A stretch of DNA of 32,000 nt from Delftia acidovorans NBRC 14950 (GTDB lineage: Bacteria > Pseudomonadota > Gammaproteobacteria > Burkholderiales > Burkholderiaceae_C), in NCBI RefSeq assembly GCF_001598795.1, contig NZ_BCZP01000038.1:1-32000 (forward strand). Reading direction: 5' to 3'. The notes below the pieces were generated by a model. The model had not been told where the DNA came from. It saw only the letters and a program-made list of their open reading frames with translations, and made no database searches. Below are positions 8,232 through 9,777 of the stretch, piece by piece. Each line of letters starts with the position of its first letter. Positions within the stretch are counted from its first letter, which is position 1. The translations under genes were made by a program, and so were the position numbers.

Positions 8232-8502
8232 GGCTGCACCCTGAAGAAATACTGAGCGAAAGAAACTCTGAACCTGTTGTACCGCACCTGTGCGGTCCAA
8301 AACGAAATGACGAGGTAGGGGTTGGCCTAAGAGCGGCGGGCATGCTGATTGCCGCCTGTACAGCCTCACAGCCTGGAAGAAGATACATATTGGTACAAGA
8401 CCCGAAAGAACGGTAGCATGCGCTCACATTTAACCAATAGAAAGCGTAGTGACATGCGAGTATCAATAACTCCTGCCGTTGCCAATTCGGCAGAGGGTCC
8501 AC

Positions 8503-8757
8503 ATGGATGAGTGCAAGCCGGGCCAGGACAGCGACCAACAACCCCAGTGGTCGCCTACGGGAGCACTGGCCCTGCTTATTTTGGGAGCGCTTGCGATAGC
8601 TGCGGCGATTTGGCTCATGGCAAAGCAGCACCGCACCCTGCCTTGGCAACTGCGAGCCGCAGCCATTGCCGCACCGGCAACAGAAGCTTCGCCGCCAGCC
8701 GCAGCTGCCGAAATGCAATGCCCAAATCAGAACTGGACTGCAGGCCAACGCACGTGA
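8503..8757 (+). CDS. Small single-TM membrane protein, 84 aa
   Basis: ATG 8503 preceded by GAGGG SD (cagagggtccacATG): MDECKPGQDSDQQPQWSPTGALALLILGALAIAAAIWLMAKQH... It has one strong hydrophobic helix. The stop TGA 8755-8757 overlaps an ATG at 8757. Confidence 0.5.
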   Translation: MDECKPGQDSDQQPQWSPTGALALLILGALAIAAAIWLMAKQHRTLPWQLRAAAIAAPATEASPPAAAAEMQCPNQNWTAGQRT

Positions 8758-8843
8758 TGAGCTTCTGGCGCAGGGCTGGGTCCAGAAACGACGAAGCCCG
8801 CGCGAGACACCCCCAGGATGGTGCCGCCCGGGTCCTGAATAGA

Positions 8844-9395
8844 ATGGCGGCAATCAGCGGCCTGGCGCCGCGACGACTGGAGGGGATCCTGGCCGCGTAT
8901 CAACTGCAACCGAAAAAACTGAACGTCTGGGCTGCACTGGTCTATTTCCTGCTTTTCATGGACCAGAGGTACATCAAGGCAGCGACCCAAAATTCCATTG
9001 AGGTGAGCATTCGTTCAGCCGACTATAAGCTGAAGCACGATGCTGGAATCTACCCTTCAGACGAGGAAGTAGAGCACCTCAACACATTCAATGCTTTTCA
9101 GCTGAAAAAGATGCGCAAGGAGTTTTGGTCCGCAGCGGCATGGACTCTGCTGATCATCGCCTTTTCCATCGGAGTGCTCGCCCTATTGTCGAAGGCCCCA
9201 TGTGCCGGACTCACGGCGCCCAAAGTAGTTTCCTCAATCGGAGGAGCGTTGGCGGCATGGGGGACTATGTTCCAGTTGATCCGTGCGGATGCCACATTCA
9301 AAGCTGCGCAGGCACACGAATTGATGCGCCCGCCCCTCTTCCTGCTCCTGTTCGTGCCAGGCTCTGTGCTGGCTATCGCCGGCACGCTGGCGTAG
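8844..9395 (+). CDS. Multi-TM membrane protein (183 aa from ATG 8844; up to 212 aa if ATG 8757 is used)
   Basis: Distal part of track ORF 8511..9395: MAAISGLAPRRLEGILAAYQLQPKKLNVWAALVYFLLFMDQ...WTLLIIAFSIGVLALL...VVSSIGGALAAWGTMFQLI...PPLFLLLFVPGSVLAIAGTLA, with 3-4 hydrophobic helices. The body is AT-richer than the phage core. The stretch 8782-8801 is a repeat also found in a non-coding spacer at 10118, which argues for the later start. Confidence 0.6.
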   Translation: MAAISGLAPRRLEGILAAYQLQPKKLNVWAALVYFLLFMDQRYIKAATQNSIEVSIRSADYKLKHDAGIYPSDEEVEHLNTFNAFQLKKMRKEFWSAAAWTLLIIAFSIGVLALLSKAPCAGLTAPKVVSSIGGALAAWGTMFQLIRADATFKAAQAHELMRPPLFLLLFVPGSVLAIAGTLA

Positions 9396-9430
9396 GCCGG
9401 TGCCCGTCCGGGCGTGGAGTGGTACGCTCT

Positions 9431-9757
9431 TGGCACTGCCGCATAAGCAGCTCAGAAAAAAGCGCATTCGCCGAGTGCGCTTCGTTTTTGTTCACTGCCG
9501 CATAGGCAGCTCAGAAATGTGCTCTACGACACGGCCGTGCATGCTGTCGGTTTGCTGCCGCATAGGCAGCTCAGAAACTCCTCCTTCGAGTGCTTAGCCC
9601 TGCACCCAAATTCACTGCCGTATAGGCAGCTCAGAAATGTGATCTGTCGGCAGAAGCAAAAGGCAGGTGGTTCACTGCCGTATAGGCAGCTCAGCAACTC
9701 TCCGCCAAGATGCAGGCCGCTTGAGCCCTCTTCACTGCCGCACAGGCAGCCAGGCCC
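9431..9757 (+). CRISPR. Orphan type I-F-like CRISPR mini-array, 6 repeats / 5 spacers, no cas genes in window
   Basis: 28-nt repeats:
- R1 9431-9458 TGGCACTGCCGCATAAGCAGCTCAGAAA
- R2 9490-9517 GTTCACTGCCGCATAGGCAGCTCAGAAA
- R3 9550-9577 GTTTGCTGCCGCATAGGCAGCTCAGAAA
- R4 9610-9637 ATTCACTGCCGTATAGGCAGCTCAGAAA
- R5 9670-9697 GTTCACTGCCGTATAGGCAGCTCAGCAA
- R6 9730-9757 CTTCACTGCCGCACAGGCAGCCAGGCCC (degenerate 3' end)

Spacers are 31, 32, 32, 32 and 32 nt. The repeat matches the canonical I-F family (GTTCACTGCCGTRTAGGCAGCTAAGAAA), including the Cas6f hairpin CTGCC/GGCAG. Orientation is inferred from the I-F consensus and the degenerate terminal repeat. Confidence 0.92.
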
Positions 9758-9777
9758 GCCCAGCGGGCCTTTTTCTT
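9753..9777 (+). terminator. Rho-independent terminator immediately after (overlapping) the last CRISPR repeat
   Basis: GGCCCGC-CCA-GCGGGCC stem-loop (9753-9769) followed by TTTTTCTT. There is no T-run on the opposite strand, so it is + strand specific. Confidence 0.75.

What the first reader, a model, noticed from the sequence alone, without database searches (positions are those of the whole stretch)
8232..9777. The mini-array looks like the 3' end of a membrane-protein operon (no leader of its own)
**What the sequence shows**
- On the + strand, an AT-richer divergent intergenic region (8232-8502) is followed by an 84-aa single-TM gene with a good GAGGG SD.
- Next comes a 183-212-aa multi-TM gene.
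- Only 35 nt after its stop codon (9395) comes repeat 1.
- The only convincing terminator, leaving aside the weaker spacer-1 hairpin treated in its own finding, is fused to repeat 6 (9753-9777).
- There is no room for the ~100-nt AT-rich leader that normal I-F arrays use for transcription and Cas1-Cas2 integration.

**Interpretation**
- The crRNAs may be cut out of the 3' UTR of an mRNA that also encodes two membrane proteins.
- The array would then be fixed cargo rather than an adapting locus.
- A membrane-protein pair plus a fixed array as one moron-like cassette could be a two-layer exclusion module: surface or injection block plus nucleic-acid targeting.
Basis: inference. Interest (0 to 1): 0.62.

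Follow-up and report, generated by a model that had tools for sequence, protein, structure and literature searches.

The report
Prophage CRISPR mini-array behind membrane gene
A Delftia-type prophage carries a compact, leaderless type I-F CRISPR mini-array directly behind a conserved membrane-protein gene; its spacers match other prophages of the same genus, but this host has no I-F Cas proteins to use them, so it is a member of the known class of virus-borne mini-arrays and not a new kind of system.

Summary
The anatomy is real. There are six I-F repeats and five spacers at 9431-9757. The array starts 35 nt after a membrane-protein gene and ends in a repeat-terminator fusion. It has no canonical leader.

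- **Conserved unit.** It is a promoter-like element, a ~168-aa membrane gene ("M183"), a ~38-nt GC-rich junction, the array and the terminator. Six of 10 relatives with an M183 homologue have an array at this exact spot.
- **The 84-aa gene.** It is real but not part of the unit. In relatives it lies beyond the array, paired divergently with a zinc-ribbon gene. Its position upstream of M183 was seen only in this window.
- **Not fixed cargo.** Eight related arrays hold 1-6 spacers, about 25 distinct, shared in patches.
- **Targets.** Six spacers match prophage or integrative-element DNA in same-genus genomes, five with the I-F CC PAM. This fits inter-phage competition.
- **Host.** It lacks Csy4, Csy3 and any other I-F repeat, so the array is probably inert here. 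It also shows decay: a weakened R1 stem, variant repeats and a CTG start for M183.

A conserved TGGTACGCT motif in the junction could be a separate promoter. M183's function is unknown.

The parts
7935..8231 (-). 98-aa Cys-rich (CxxC) zinc-ribbon-like gene. Its last 55 nt are repeated after the array.
   Evidence: ORF list. Homologues at 92-99% identity lie next to the array or M183 in L006, L051, L054, L056 and L080. No Pfam, PHROG or PDB match.
8232..8502 (.). AT-richer divergent intergenic region shared by the zinc-ribbon gene and the 84-aa gene.
   Evidence: GC is 0.53 here against about 0.60-0.65 in the flanks. The region is conserved with L006. The consensus scan found no sigma-70 site.
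8503..8757 (+). 84-aa single-pass membrane protein gene (TM84). It is a real gene, but it is the partner of the zinc-ribbon gene, not of the array.
   Evidence: One transmembrane segment at residues 21-39. tblastn finds homologues in L054, L080, L051, L056 and L006, always divergent from the zinc-ribbon gene and never upstream of M183.
8782..8804 (.). 23-nt copy of half of the minus-strand terminator at 10118-10140. It marks a recombination seam at the left edge of the M183 module.
   Evidence: Direct repeat D7, 96% identical. Homology with L006 and L050 starts here.
8810..8850 (+). Upstream element of M183 containing TAGAAT (8840-8845). It is the putative promoter of the cassette.
   Evidence: The core ..CCTGMATAGAATGGC.. 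(TACAAT in L056) is present in all 10 M183 loci, whatever lies upstream. The promoter role is inferred. The consensus scan did not call it.
8889..9395 (+). M183, a 168-aa helical membrane protein gene. Its start codon is CTG here and TTG or ATG in relatives. The frame is also open from ATG 8844.
   Evidence: Ten homologues at 39-88% identity, with invariant GGALAAWGTIFQL and RPPLFLLLFVPGSVLAIAGTLA motifs. GC by codon position is coding-like. AF2 gives pLDDT 79, all helices. Two strong hydrophobic segments, 82-100 and 150-168, plus weaker hydrophobic stretches at 13-23 and about 113-132.
9396..9430 (+). GC-rich junction between the M183 stop and R1. It contains TGGTACGCT (9420-9428), an extended -10-like motif.
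   Evidence: Conserved in the seven arrays where the junction can be read, and partly in L080, including L050 where no M183 is upstream. It is unrelated to native I-F leaders. The promoter role is inferred.
9431..9458 (+). R1, the first repeat. Its 5' end is replaced (TGG instead of GTT) and its stem is weakened by a G-to-A change. Its 3' handle CTCAGAAA is intact.
   Evidence: In the MFE fold the R1 hairpin does not form. The R1 copies in relatives also have a non-consensus 5' end.
9459..9489 (+). Spacer 1, 31 nt. It forms a terminator-like hairpin followed by a T-run.
   Evidence: Terminator scan. Folds at -13.5 kcal/mol. Identical in L008, and duplicated with two changes in L052. No target found.
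9490..9729 (+). R2-S2-R3-S3-R4-S4-R5-S5. The repeats start at 9490, 9550, 9610 and 9670. The spacers are at 9518-9549, 9578-9609, 9638-9669 and 9698-9729.
   Evidence: Rfam CRISPR-DR4. S4 matches prophage DNA at 31/32 and S5 matches a tRNA-Ser/integrase junction at 29/32, both with a 5'-CC PAM. S3 and S4 are shared in the same order with L080.
9730..9777 (+). R6, the terminal repeat, keeps its 5' 20 nt and hairpin but has lost its 3' handle. It is fused to an intrinsic terminator (stem 9752-9770 plus T-run).
   Evidence: The same fusion ends all eight related arrays.
9787..9841 (-). Remnant copy of the 3' end of the zinc-ribbon gene. It is a direct repeat of 7935-7989.
   Evidence: Repeat D3, 82% over 55 nt. 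The same remnant follows the array in L008. In L006, L051 and L054 the full gene sits at this position.
9883..10092 (-). 69-aa gene convergent on the cassette. It forms the right border of the module.
   Evidence: ORF list. Homologues at 92-96% identity sit at the same border in L008, L052, L056 and L006, and at 74% in L050.

Best explanation
This is a moron-like cassette on the strand opposite the late genes of a Delftia-type prophage.

**Parts**
- A conserved promoter-like element.
- A 168-aa helical membrane-protein gene (M183).
- A compact type I-F CRISPR mini-array, following with no terminator in between.

**How the array is trimmed.** It is cut down to the minimum needed to make crRNAs. 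The first repeat has lost its 5' end but keeps the hairpin and the 8-nt handle. The last repeat keeps only the 5' 20 nt and hairpin and runs straight into a terminator. There is no canonical leader.

**Proposed working (inferred)**
- Transcripts that start upstream of M183 should run through the array, because nothing stops them before spacer 1. Transcripts may also start at a -10-like motif in the junction.
- In a host that has a type I-F system, Cas6f would cut these transcripts into crRNAs and the host Csy complex would load them.
- The complex would then be directed against other temperate phages and integrative elements of the same genus. This would be competition between mobile elements.

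**This lysogen.** The present host has no I-F cas genes, so here the array is silent cargo and shows signs of relaxed selection.

**Turnover.** The arrays of this prophage family change over time. The patchy sharing of spacers points to exchange between arrays by recombination at the repeats, more than to orderly leader-end acquisition.

**M183.** It is a conserved neighbour of unknown function. A surface-exclusion role is only a guess.
For: **Shown**
- The repeats belong to the I-F family and read on the + strand. They differ by 1-2 nt from native I-F repeats of the genus.
- Six distinct spacers from this family of arrays match DNA in other species of the genus:
  - window S4: 31/32, in a prophage early region with a CI repressor, Sak4 and SSB;
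  - window S5: 29/32, across the end of tRNA-Ser and the flank of an integrase gene;
  - the L008/L055 terminal spacer: 30/32, inside a major head protein gene;
  - L055_s3: a phrog_8117 phage gene;
  - L055_s5: about 150-400 nt from the S4 site;
  - L054_s1: 30/32.
- Five of the six have a 5'-CC PAM on the spacer-identical strand. P is about 4e-5, given a CC frequency of 0.095.
- There is no self-target in the host genome.
- M183-array synteny with a conserved junction is found in L008, L051, L052/L053, L054 and L055.
- The M183 upstream element is conserved in all 10 loci.
- There is no + strand terminator between 8232 and 9459.
- The terminal repeat-terminator fusion is found in all eight arrays.
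- The host genome is 100% complete and has no Csy4, no Csy3 and no other I-F repeat.
- Twelve of 59 other species sampled from the genus have Csy4.
- Two provirus records of this family encode no Csy4.
- The phage late genes are all on the minus strand.

**Literature.** Virus-borne mini-arrays that use host Cas proteins against rival viruses are an established class (PMC11656645).
Against: - No transcript data could be obtained. Neither the promoters nor the processing is shown.
- The spacer-1 hairpin looks like a working terminator. It would cut expression of spacers 2-5 from any upstream start.
- In this window R1 has a weakened stem, R5 has a changed handle, S4 carries a mismatch to every protospacer found, and M183 starts with CTG. 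The host has no Cas proteins, so the cassette may be non-functional here.
- Only 6 of 23 spacers tested have a target. Window S1, S2 and S3 have none.
- The relatives are few and related by descent, so the synteny counts are not independent.
Confidence: 0.62

Rival explanations
1. The array is an autonomous unit with its own promoter in the junction (TGGTACGCT, 9420-9428; expected start inside the 5' end of R1). Its position behind M183 would then reflect where the cassette landed, in the gap between two convergent genes, and not a 3'-UTR design. This overlaps with the best explanation, because both starts could be used.
For: - The motif keeps T, A and the final T of a -10 box plus an upstream TG. 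It is kept in 7 arrays, with TAGGCT in L052.
- L050 has a complete 4-spacer array with this junction but no M183 upstream. That array diverges from a second array about 90 nt away.
- The non-consensus 5' end of every R1 fits a transcription start there.
- In M183 loci without an array, the M183 stop and the zinc-ribbon gene stop are only about 5 nt apart. The junction-array-terminator block therefore behaves as one indel.
- Viral solitary repeat units are reported to sit directly downstream of predicted promoters (PMC10651486).
Against: - There is no -35 element and the region is GC-rich.
- The consensus promoter scan finds nothing.
- The motif could be conserved only because the cassettes share recent ancestry.
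- Read-through from M183 cannot be avoided, because there is no terminator.
Confidence: 0.4
2. The cassette acts as an RNA anti-CRISPR or decoy. Abundant repeat-bearing transcripts, in particular the unit R1 plus terminator hairpin, would soak up Cas6f and Csy subunits of an I-F host and protect the phage itself. It would work like Racr RNAs or non-targeting crRNAs.
For: - R1 followed at once by a terminator hairpin resembles a solitary repeat unit. This R1-S1 unit is conserved in three arrays and duplicated in L052.
- L078 and L079 keep only a lone terminal repeat plus terminator.
- RacrIF1 and even a non-targeting crRNA reduce I-F interference (PMC10651486).
Against: - The spacers have the canonical 32-nt length, and several have near-perfect, CC-flanked matches in phage genes. 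A pure decoy does not need this.
- No known anti-CRISPR protein neighbour was found by sequence.
- R1 in this window has a weakened hairpin.
Confidence: 0.12
3. The spacers are regulatory guides (Cracr or crRNA-like RNAs) that repress cas promoters or CRISPR-linked toxin genes of the host through partial, seed-only pairing.
For: Phage multi-spacer arrays of this kind exist for I-F systems (bioRxiv 10.1101/2024.10.29.618823; 10.1101/2023.03.03.530964). Window S1, S2 and S3 have no ordinary target.
Against: - No window spacer has a CC plus 8-nt or longer seed match in six I-F cas loci of the genus.
- The hits of other spacers are 16 against 8 expected from shuffles, in GC-rich seeds.
- The spacers are full length and not shortened. 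Several have full-length phage matches.
Confidence: 0.04
4. The array is a decaying piece of a host CRISPR array picked up by the phage. It has no current function, and its place behind M183 is an accident preserved by descent.
For: - The host has no I-F system.
- Every repeat in the window differs.
- S4 has drifted from its target.
- The M183 start codon is CTG.
- None of 75 other species representatives of the genus carries the cassette.
Against: - Eight arrays keep the same trimmed ends, intact hairpins in nearly all repeats, exact 60-nt periodicity and the terminator fusion, while their spacer content differs.
- That pattern indicates maintenance and turnover, not decay, at the level of the family.
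- Decay may still hold for this one copy.
Confidence: 0.15

Closest known systems
Virus-borne CRISPR mini-arrays that use the host's Cas proteins against rival viruses (surveyed by Faure et al. 2019; tested with Saccharolobus viruses SPV1 and SPV2; reviewed in PMC11656645)
   Same: - There are no cas genes on the element.
- The repeats match host-type repeats of the genus.
- The spacers match other viruses or integrative elements, with the correct PAM.
- The location is an accessory region of a temperate phage.
   Different: - This family has up to 5-6 spacers, against the usual one or two.
- The present host lacks the cognate system altogether.
- The array is fixed behind a conserved membrane-protein gene and has both end repeats trimmed, with the last one fused to a terminator.
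- The targets found so far belong to a different temperate phage type. The targeted capsid is phrog_334, while the carrier's own is phrog_1357.
RacrIF1 and viral solitary repeat units (PMC10651486)
   Same: - A prophage-encoded I-F repeat lies right after a promoter-like sequence.
- R1 plus the hairpin of spacer 1 looks like a repeat followed by a terminator.
- Lone-repeat remnants exist in relatives (L078, L079).
   Different: - This is a multi-spacer array with canonical 32-nt spacers and real PAM-flanked targets.
- No acr gene neighbour was recognised.
- Anti-CRISPR activity was not tested.
Phage Cracr arrays and crRNA-like regulatory mini-arrays (bioRxiv 10.1101/2024.10.29.618823; 10.1101/2023.03.03.530964)
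   Same: A multi-spacer, cas-less array carried by a phage and transcribed as one compact unit.
   Different: - No seed matches to cas promoters were found in six I-F loci of the genus.
- The spacers are not shortened.
- There is no acrIF24-like neighbour.
Canonical chromosomal type I-F CRISPR array with leader
   Same: The same 28-nt repeat family, 32-nt spacers, a CC PAM on the targets, and transcription in the repeat's sense direction.
   Different: - There is no ~150-nt AT-rich leader with the conserved motifs seen after cas6f in the genus.
- The 5' end of the first repeat, where leader-side integration takes place, is replaced.
- No cas genes are adjacent, or anywhere else in the genome.
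Prophage morons and superinfection-exclusion membrane proteins
   Same: A small membrane-protein gene with its own promoter-like element and a terminator, placed antisense within the late region of a prophage.
   Different: - M183 has no sequence or fold similarity to any described exclusion protein.
- An exclusion function is conjecture.

Membership tests
Type I-F CRISPR array | 28-nt repeats of the I-F family with the CTGCC-N5-GGCAG hairpin and the CT(A/C)AGAAA 3' handle, at 60-nt periodicity | tested here: met
   Six copies spaced 59-60 nt apart. Rfam RF01317 scores four above gathering. They differ by 1-2 nt from native repeats next to cas6f in the genus.
Type I-F CRISPR array | Protospacers flanked by the I-F PAM (5'-CC on the spacer-identical strand) | tested here: met
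   S4 and S5 of the window, and 3 of 4 other targeted spacers of related arrays, have CC. P is about 4e-5.
Type I-F CRISPR array | AT-rich leader carrying the promoter and integration signals upstream of the first repeat | tested here: not met
   The window has a 35-nt GC-rich junction (about 38 nt in relatives) with none of the motifs of four native leaders of the genus.
Type I-F CRISPR array | Cognate cas genes (cas6f/csy4, csy3, others) in the same genome | tested here: not met
   PF09618 and PF09615 are absent from the 100%-complete host genome. 2,851 bases of the genome are withheld, which is too few to hold an I-F operon. Two provirus records of the family also lack Csy4.
Virus-borne CRISPR mini-array (inter-virus competition) | Cas-less short array inside a virus or provirus | tested here: met
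   The window encodes terS, terL, portal/adaptor, major head and replication proteins. Relatives are IMG/VR proviruses.
Virus-borne CRISPR mini-array (inter-virus competition) | Repeats match a CRISPR-Cas type present in the host range | tested here: met
   Twelve of 59 other species sampled from the genus carry Csy4, with arrays of near-identical repeats. The window's own host does not.
Virus-borne CRISPR mini-array (inter-virus competition) | Spacers target other viruses or mobile elements | tested here: met
   The targets are a major head protein gene, a prophage early region, an integrase/tRNA-Ser junction and a phrog_8117 gene. Only 6 of 23 spacers tested have a target.
Virus-borne CRISPR mini-array (inter-virus competition) | crRNAs are produced and restrict the rival element in a Cas-bearing host | not testable with these tools
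   Needs RNA and interference assays.
RNA anti-CRISPR (Racr / solitary repeat unit) | A single repeat-like unit without a functional spacer, expressed from its own promoter, that inhibits the cognate Cas complex | tested here: inconclusive
   R1 plus the terminator hairpin resembles such a unit. It is followed by five more repeats and by targeted spacers. Inhibition cannot be tested here.
Cracr / crRNA-like regulatory array | PAM-flanked seed complementarity of 9 nt or more to cas promoters or CRISPR-linked toxin genes | tested here: not met
   No window spacer has a CC plus 8-nt seed in six I-F loci of the genus. The overall hit count is near the shuffled expectation.
   The 84-aa gene is never upstream of M183 in relatives. 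It lies after the array, paired with the zinc-ribbon gene. M183 followed by the array is conserved in 6 of 10 relatives.

The most novel reading that the evidence does not exclude
The junction-array-terminator block is a self-contained, leaderless crRNA cartridge.

- A minimal promoter is fused into a 5'-truncated first repeat, and a terminator is fused into a 3'-truncated last repeat.
- The block moves as a single indel between convergent genes of polyvalent-protein prophages.
- It renews its spacers by repeat-mediated recombination between co-resident phage arrays, not by Cas1-Cas2/3 integration.
Probability: 0.18. Interest if true: 0.65.

Novelty: new member of a known kind. Interest (0 to 1): 0.45.

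Why it matters
Virus-borne mini-arrays are known, but few have been dissected.

- **A natural series.** This prophage family offers at least eight arrays with 1-6 spacers. All have the same trimmed ends and the same flanking genes.
- **Identifiable targets.** The targets lie in co-occurring prophages. One of them sits in the window's own host genome and is matched by a relative's spacer.
- **Questions it makes testable.** How does a leaderless phage array get transcribed? How does it gain and lose spacers? Does it pay its way in hosts that lack the Cas machinery?
- **What the tests would show.** If the junction proves to be a minimal promoter, the cassette is a compact natural design for multiplex crRNA expression. 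If M183 proves to be an exclusion protein, the linkage would join two unrelated defence layers in one moron.

As it stands, the window copy is most likely inactive cargo. The finding refines a known theme and does not open a new one.

Tried and rejected
- **Spacer 2 and the giant gene.** S2 resembles the start of the giant gene's conserved N-terminal domain (21/28 nt; it would encode VLYDTAVHA against VLNDTAIEA). I took this as a lead for targeting of sister phages. None of about 120 homologues has that peptide, and the motif NDT(A/V)IE is nearly invariant. I rejected it as chance.
- **Public phage collections.** The cassette and the array gave no match in INPHARED phages. Plasmid hits were only ordinary I-F arrays. 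Exact scans of IMG/VR for spacer 1 and S2 found nothing.
- **Terminal repeat-terminator pattern.** It found nothing in genome contigs or metagenome contigs. It found three IMG/VR loci.
- **Other species of the genus.** The spacer-1 pattern and the terminal pattern are absent from the other species representatives of the genus that were searched (59 and 75).
- **Cracr-type regulation.** Not supported in six I-F loci.
- **The conserved last 75 nt of M183 as an array-specific leader.** Rejected. That stretch is equally conserved in homologues without an array.
- **M183 function.** No significant Pfam or PHROG family. No Foldseek match in the PDB or BFVD libraries at E <= 1.
- **Neighbouring small proteins.** No PDB sequence match, and therefore none to a solved anti-CRISPR protein.
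- **Tool limits.** The window's own M183 product is not on record in the contig index.
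Full report
**1. What is there**

The + strand of 9431-9757 holds six copies of a 28-nt repeat at 59-60-nt spacing.
- Rfam's CRISPR-DR4 (type I-F family) scores four of them above its gathering threshold on the + strand.
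- The five spacers are 31, 32, 32, 32 and 32 nt.
- R1 starts 35 nt after the stop codon (9393-9395) of a + strand ORF.
- R6 keeps only its 5' 20 nt and hairpin, then runs into GGCCCGCCCAGCGGGCC-TTTTTCTT. The terminator scan finds this, and the region folds at -30.8 kcal/mol, z = -3.3.
- The scan finds one other + strand terminator-like site, the hairpin inside spacer 1 (10 bp, -13.5 kcal/mol, then CGTTTTTG).
- No + strand terminator lies between 8232 and 9459.

**2. Setting**

The window is the first 32 kb of a 41.6-kb contig of a 6.63-Mb genome that is 100% complete.
- It is a prophage. Replication proteins, RusA, terS, terL, portal/adaptor, major head protein (phrog_1357) and a structural protein are all on the minus strand.
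- The 2105-aa gene at 1177-7494 is a polyvalent protein (LPD3/LPD38, "PLxRFG domain"). It is common in Delftia, Comamonas and Variovorax prophages.
- The closest homologues of the cassette proteins are named Delftia by their sources.
- The cassette is on the + strand, antisense to the late genes, as a moron would be.

**3. The host cannot use the array**

The only I-F repeats in the genome are these. Csy4/Cas6f (PF09618) and Csy3 (PF09615) are absent. The 2,851 withheld bases are too few to hide an I-F operon. Two provirus records of the same family encode no Csy4.

I-F systems do occur in the genus.
- Twelve of 59 other species sampled have Csy4.
- Their arrays use repeats 1-2 nt different from those here.
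- About a tenth of 400 genomes sampled from the family have multi-copy arrays of this repeat type.

**4. Leader**

In four same-genus I-F loci, the first repeat follows cas6f after about 150 nt of AT-rich sequence. That sequence has shared motifs (..CCCTTTTTC....AAATCAA....GTTCTTTAAAAATCA....TCTAG). The 35-nt junction here (GCCGGTGCCCGTCCGGGCGTGGAGTGGTACGCTCT) shares none of them.

Every first repeat in this family of arrays also has a non-consensus 5' end (xGGCA instead of GTTCA). By established knowledge, that is where leader-side spacer integration takes place.

**5. The two membrane-protein genes**

*The larger ORF (M183).*
- It has a coding-like GC pattern by codon position (0.59, 0.43, 0.67).
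- It has ten homologues of 162-168 aa at 39-88% identity.
- The motifs GGALAAWGTIFQL and RPPLFLLLFVPGSVLAIAGTLA are invariant.
- Relatives start at TTG or ATG behind a GGAGGGG box. The aligned codon here is CTG at 8889. The ATG at 8844 that gives the 183-aa reading lies inside a conserved TAGAAT box.
- AlphaFold2 on the alignment gives an all-helical model, pLDDT 79.
- Two segments (82-100 and 150-168) are strongly hydrophobic, and two more are moderately so.
- There is no significant Pfam or PHROG family and no Foldseek match at E <= 1 in the PDB or BFVD libraries. Its function is unknown.

*The 84-aa ORF (TM84).*
- It has flat GC by codon position and one strong transmembrane segment.
- Its homologues at 41-100% identity in five relatives include in-frame length differences. 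It is a real gene.

**6.

I examined ten other loci that encode an M183 homologue.

| Loci | What follows or accompanies M183 |
|---|---|
| L008, L051, L052, L054, L055; L053 (contig ends inside R1) | stop codon, a ~38-nt junction nearly identical to the window's, then an I-F array ending in the same repeat-terminator fusion |
| L050 | a complete array about 1.1 kb away, not behind M183 |
| L006, L007, L056 | no array; in L006 and L007 the M183 stop is about 5 nt from the stop of the convergent zinc-ribbon gene |

The junction-array-terminator block therefore behaves as one indel between two convergent genes.

M183 carries a conserved upstream element (..CCTGCATAGAATGGC..) in all ten loci. This holds whether the upstream neighbour is the start of the polyvalent gene (L008, L051, L055), other genes (L006), or TM84 (the window).

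TM84 is never upstream of M183 in relatives. It is always divergently paired with the 98-aa zinc-ribbon gene and lies beyond the array. The order is M183, array, zinc-ribbon gene (-), TM84 (+), 69-aa gene (-), as in L051, L054 and L080.

The window's order (zinc-ribbon gene, TM84, M183, array, remnant of the zinc-ribbon 3' end) is a rearrangement. Two features mark it:
- the 55-nt direct repeat at 7935-7989 and 9787-9841;
- a 23-nt half-terminator copy at 8782-8804.

The conserved unit is M183 plus the array, not a two-membrane-protein operon.

**7. Is the array transcribed from M183?**

Nothing would stop a transcript between the M183 upstream element and spacer 1, so read-through is expected whenever M183 is transcribed.

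The junction also holds TGGTACGCT (9420-9428), which has a TG plus T-A-N3-T.
- This motif is kept in seven arrays, as TACTCT in two and TAGGCT in one.
- It is kept in L050, where no M183 is upstream and the array diverges from a second, different array about 90 nt away.
- A start 6-9 nt downstream would fall in the replaced 5' end of R1, just before the hairpin.

The consensus scan calls no sigma-70 promoter anywhere in 7500-10300. That includes both candidate elements and the AT-richer divergent region. I put read-through from M183 at roughly 0.7 and an additional junction promoter at roughly 0.4. The two are not exclusive.

**8. Not fixed cargo**

Eight arrays of this family hold 1, 3, 3, 3, 4, 4, 5 and 6 spacers, about 25 of them distinct. 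Sharing is patchy.
- Spacer 1 (the hairpin) is first in the window, L008 and L052, and duplicated in L052.
- S3-S4 are internal in the window and in L080, with different spacers on both sides.
- The last spacer is shared by L008 and L055.
- A hairpin-like last spacer is shared by L050 and L054.

Simple leader-end addition cannot give a shared first spacer with different later ones. Exchange between arrays at the repeats, plus deletions, fits better (inference).

The conclusion that the array is fixed is wrong.

**9. What the spacers match**

I scanned the 76 species representatives of the genus with concatenated spacers and realigned the hits.

| Spacer | Best match | Location of the match |
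|---|---|---|
| Window S4 | 31/32 in two genomes, 27-30/32 in five more | intergenic stretch of a prophage early region with a CI-like repressor, Sak4-like protein and SSB |
| L055_s5 | 28-30/32 | about 150-400 nt from the S4 site in the same prophages |
| Window S5 | 29/32 and 28/32 | last 10 nt of tRNA-Ser(cga) plus 22 nt running towards a convergent tyrosine integrase gene, the attachment junction of an integrated element |
| Terminal spacer of L008/L055 | 30/32 | inside a major head protein gene (phrog_334, PF13252), next to terminase and portal genes |
| L055_s3 | 30/32 | a phrog_8117 gene; one copy is in the window's own host, contig C19, with a CC PAM |
| L054_s1 | 30/32 | flanked by TC, not CC |

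- Five of the six targeted spacers have 5'-CC directly upstream on the spacer-identical strand. CC occurs at a frequency of 0.095, so P is about 4e-5. This is the I-F PAM. It also confirms the direction of transcription.
- The window's spacers have no match in their own genome. That genome holds a second prophage (C19) related to the S4-target family but lacking the S4 protospacer.
- The targeted capsid type is absent from the host genome and differs from the carrier's own.
- Window S1, S2 and S3 have no target in anything searched.

**10. Rival readings**

- *Racr-like decoy.* R1 plus a terminator hairpin looks like a solitary repeat unit. L078 and L079 keep only a lone terminal repeat with the terminator. 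However, canonical spacer lengths and PAM-flanked phage matches are not needed for a decoy. No known anti-CRISPR neighbour was found.
- *Cracr-type regulation of cas promoters.* Not supported in six I-F loci.
- *Decay.* This is plausible for the window copy. R1's stem is weakened by a G-to-A change and does not form in the MFE fold. R3, R4 and R5 each carry changes, including one in R5's handle. S4 differs at position 26 from every protospacer, while L080 has the perfect version. M183 has a CTG start. At family level, the conserved trimmed architecture combined with changing spacers argues for function.

**11. Comparison with what is known**

Cas-less mini-arrays in viruses that borrow host Cas proteins to attack rival viruses are an established class (PMC11656645; cited background in PMC10651486). 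This cassette meets the testable criteria of that class. It fails those of a canonical leader-bearing array and of Cracr arrays.

Its particular features are:
- up to six spacers;
- both end repeats trimmed to the parts needed for crRNA production (the role of those parts is from established knowledge of Cas6f processing);
- a terminator fused to the last hairpin;
- a fixed position behind a conserved membrane-protein gene;
- carriage in a host with no I-F system.

I class it as a new member of a known kind.

The earlier notes of this scan on the same window cover the cas-less array, the bracketing direct repeats, the R1/spacer-1 hairpin and the polyvalent protein. They agree with what I found and did not change my reading.

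**12. Verdict**

- The link between M183 and the array, and the lack of a leader, hold.
- The two-gene operon and the fixed-cargo claims do not.
- Co-transcription and any exclusion role of M183 remain untested.

Noticed in passing
L050:1303-1599 (Logan SRR12366592 contig, relative of the window's prophage): There is a second array of five ~32-nt repeats (GTTTCAAYCCACGC...GCGAC) at 65-66-nt periodicity. It lies about 90 nt from the I-F mini-array and diverges from it. From memory the repeat resembles the reverse complement of type I-C repeats, but Rfam did not call it. One prophage may therefore carry mini-arrays for two CRISPR types.
   Followed up: partly
L078:365-421 and L079 (IMG/VR UViG_2895169357_000005, 3300033997_000373): A lone terminal repeat (GTTCAATGCCGCACAGGCAG) is fused to the same terminator and followed by the same zinc-ribbon-gene end, with no spacers. 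It looks like an array collapsed to a solitary repeat unit. This suggests a route from mini-arrays to SRU/Racr-like elements.
   Followed up: no
window 7935-7989 and 9787-9841; 8782-8804 and 10118-10140: Two sets of direct repeats mark recombination seams around the cassette. The first (55 nt, 82% identical) is the 3' end of the zinc-ribbon gene. The second (23 nt, 96% identical) is half of a minus-strand terminator. The window's gene order is a rearranged version of the order seen in L051, L054 and L080.
   Followed up: yes
window 8889-8891: The start codon of M183 is CTG here, where nine relatives have TTG or ATG behind the same GGAGGGG box. The ATG at 8844 that extends the ORF lies inside the conserved TAGAAT box. 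Translation of M183 may be impaired in this copy.
   Followed up: partly
G000:C19:25542-25572 (own genome, another contig): The host's second prophage carries a 30/32 match, with a CC PAM, to spacer 3 of a relative's array (L055). The match is in a phrog_8117 gene. The same prophage is related to the family targeted by window spacer S4 but lacks that protospacer. Carrier and target phage families therefore co-reside in this host.
   Followed up: partly
L046:8805-8836 and 8989-9019 (G456:C1:1808.8 kb); also G405:C1:2095.7-2096.1 kb: Two unrelated arrays (window S4 and L055 spacer 5) hit the same non-coding stretch of a prophage early region. This stretch includes a ~130-nt block conserved across genomes, with no Rfam match. 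It may be a regulatory region or an RNA gene favoured as a target.
   Followed up: partly
window 9459-9489; L008, L050 and L054 spacers: Several spacers in this family are themselves GC-rich hairpins, some followed by a T-run: window S1, L008 spacer 2, and the last spacers of L050 and L054. The L050 and L054 versions differ in and around the hairpin but both keep a GC-rich stem. Why terminator-like sequences are enriched among the spacers is unexplained.
   Followed up: no
window 1177-7494: This is a 2105-aa polyvalent protein (LPD3, LPD38, PLxRFG). Its N-terminal motif NDT(A/V)IE.ANAAAGG is highly conserved across more than 100 Delftia, Comamonas and Variovorax prophage homologues. The accessory island holding the mini-array always lies next to its start.
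   Followed up: partly
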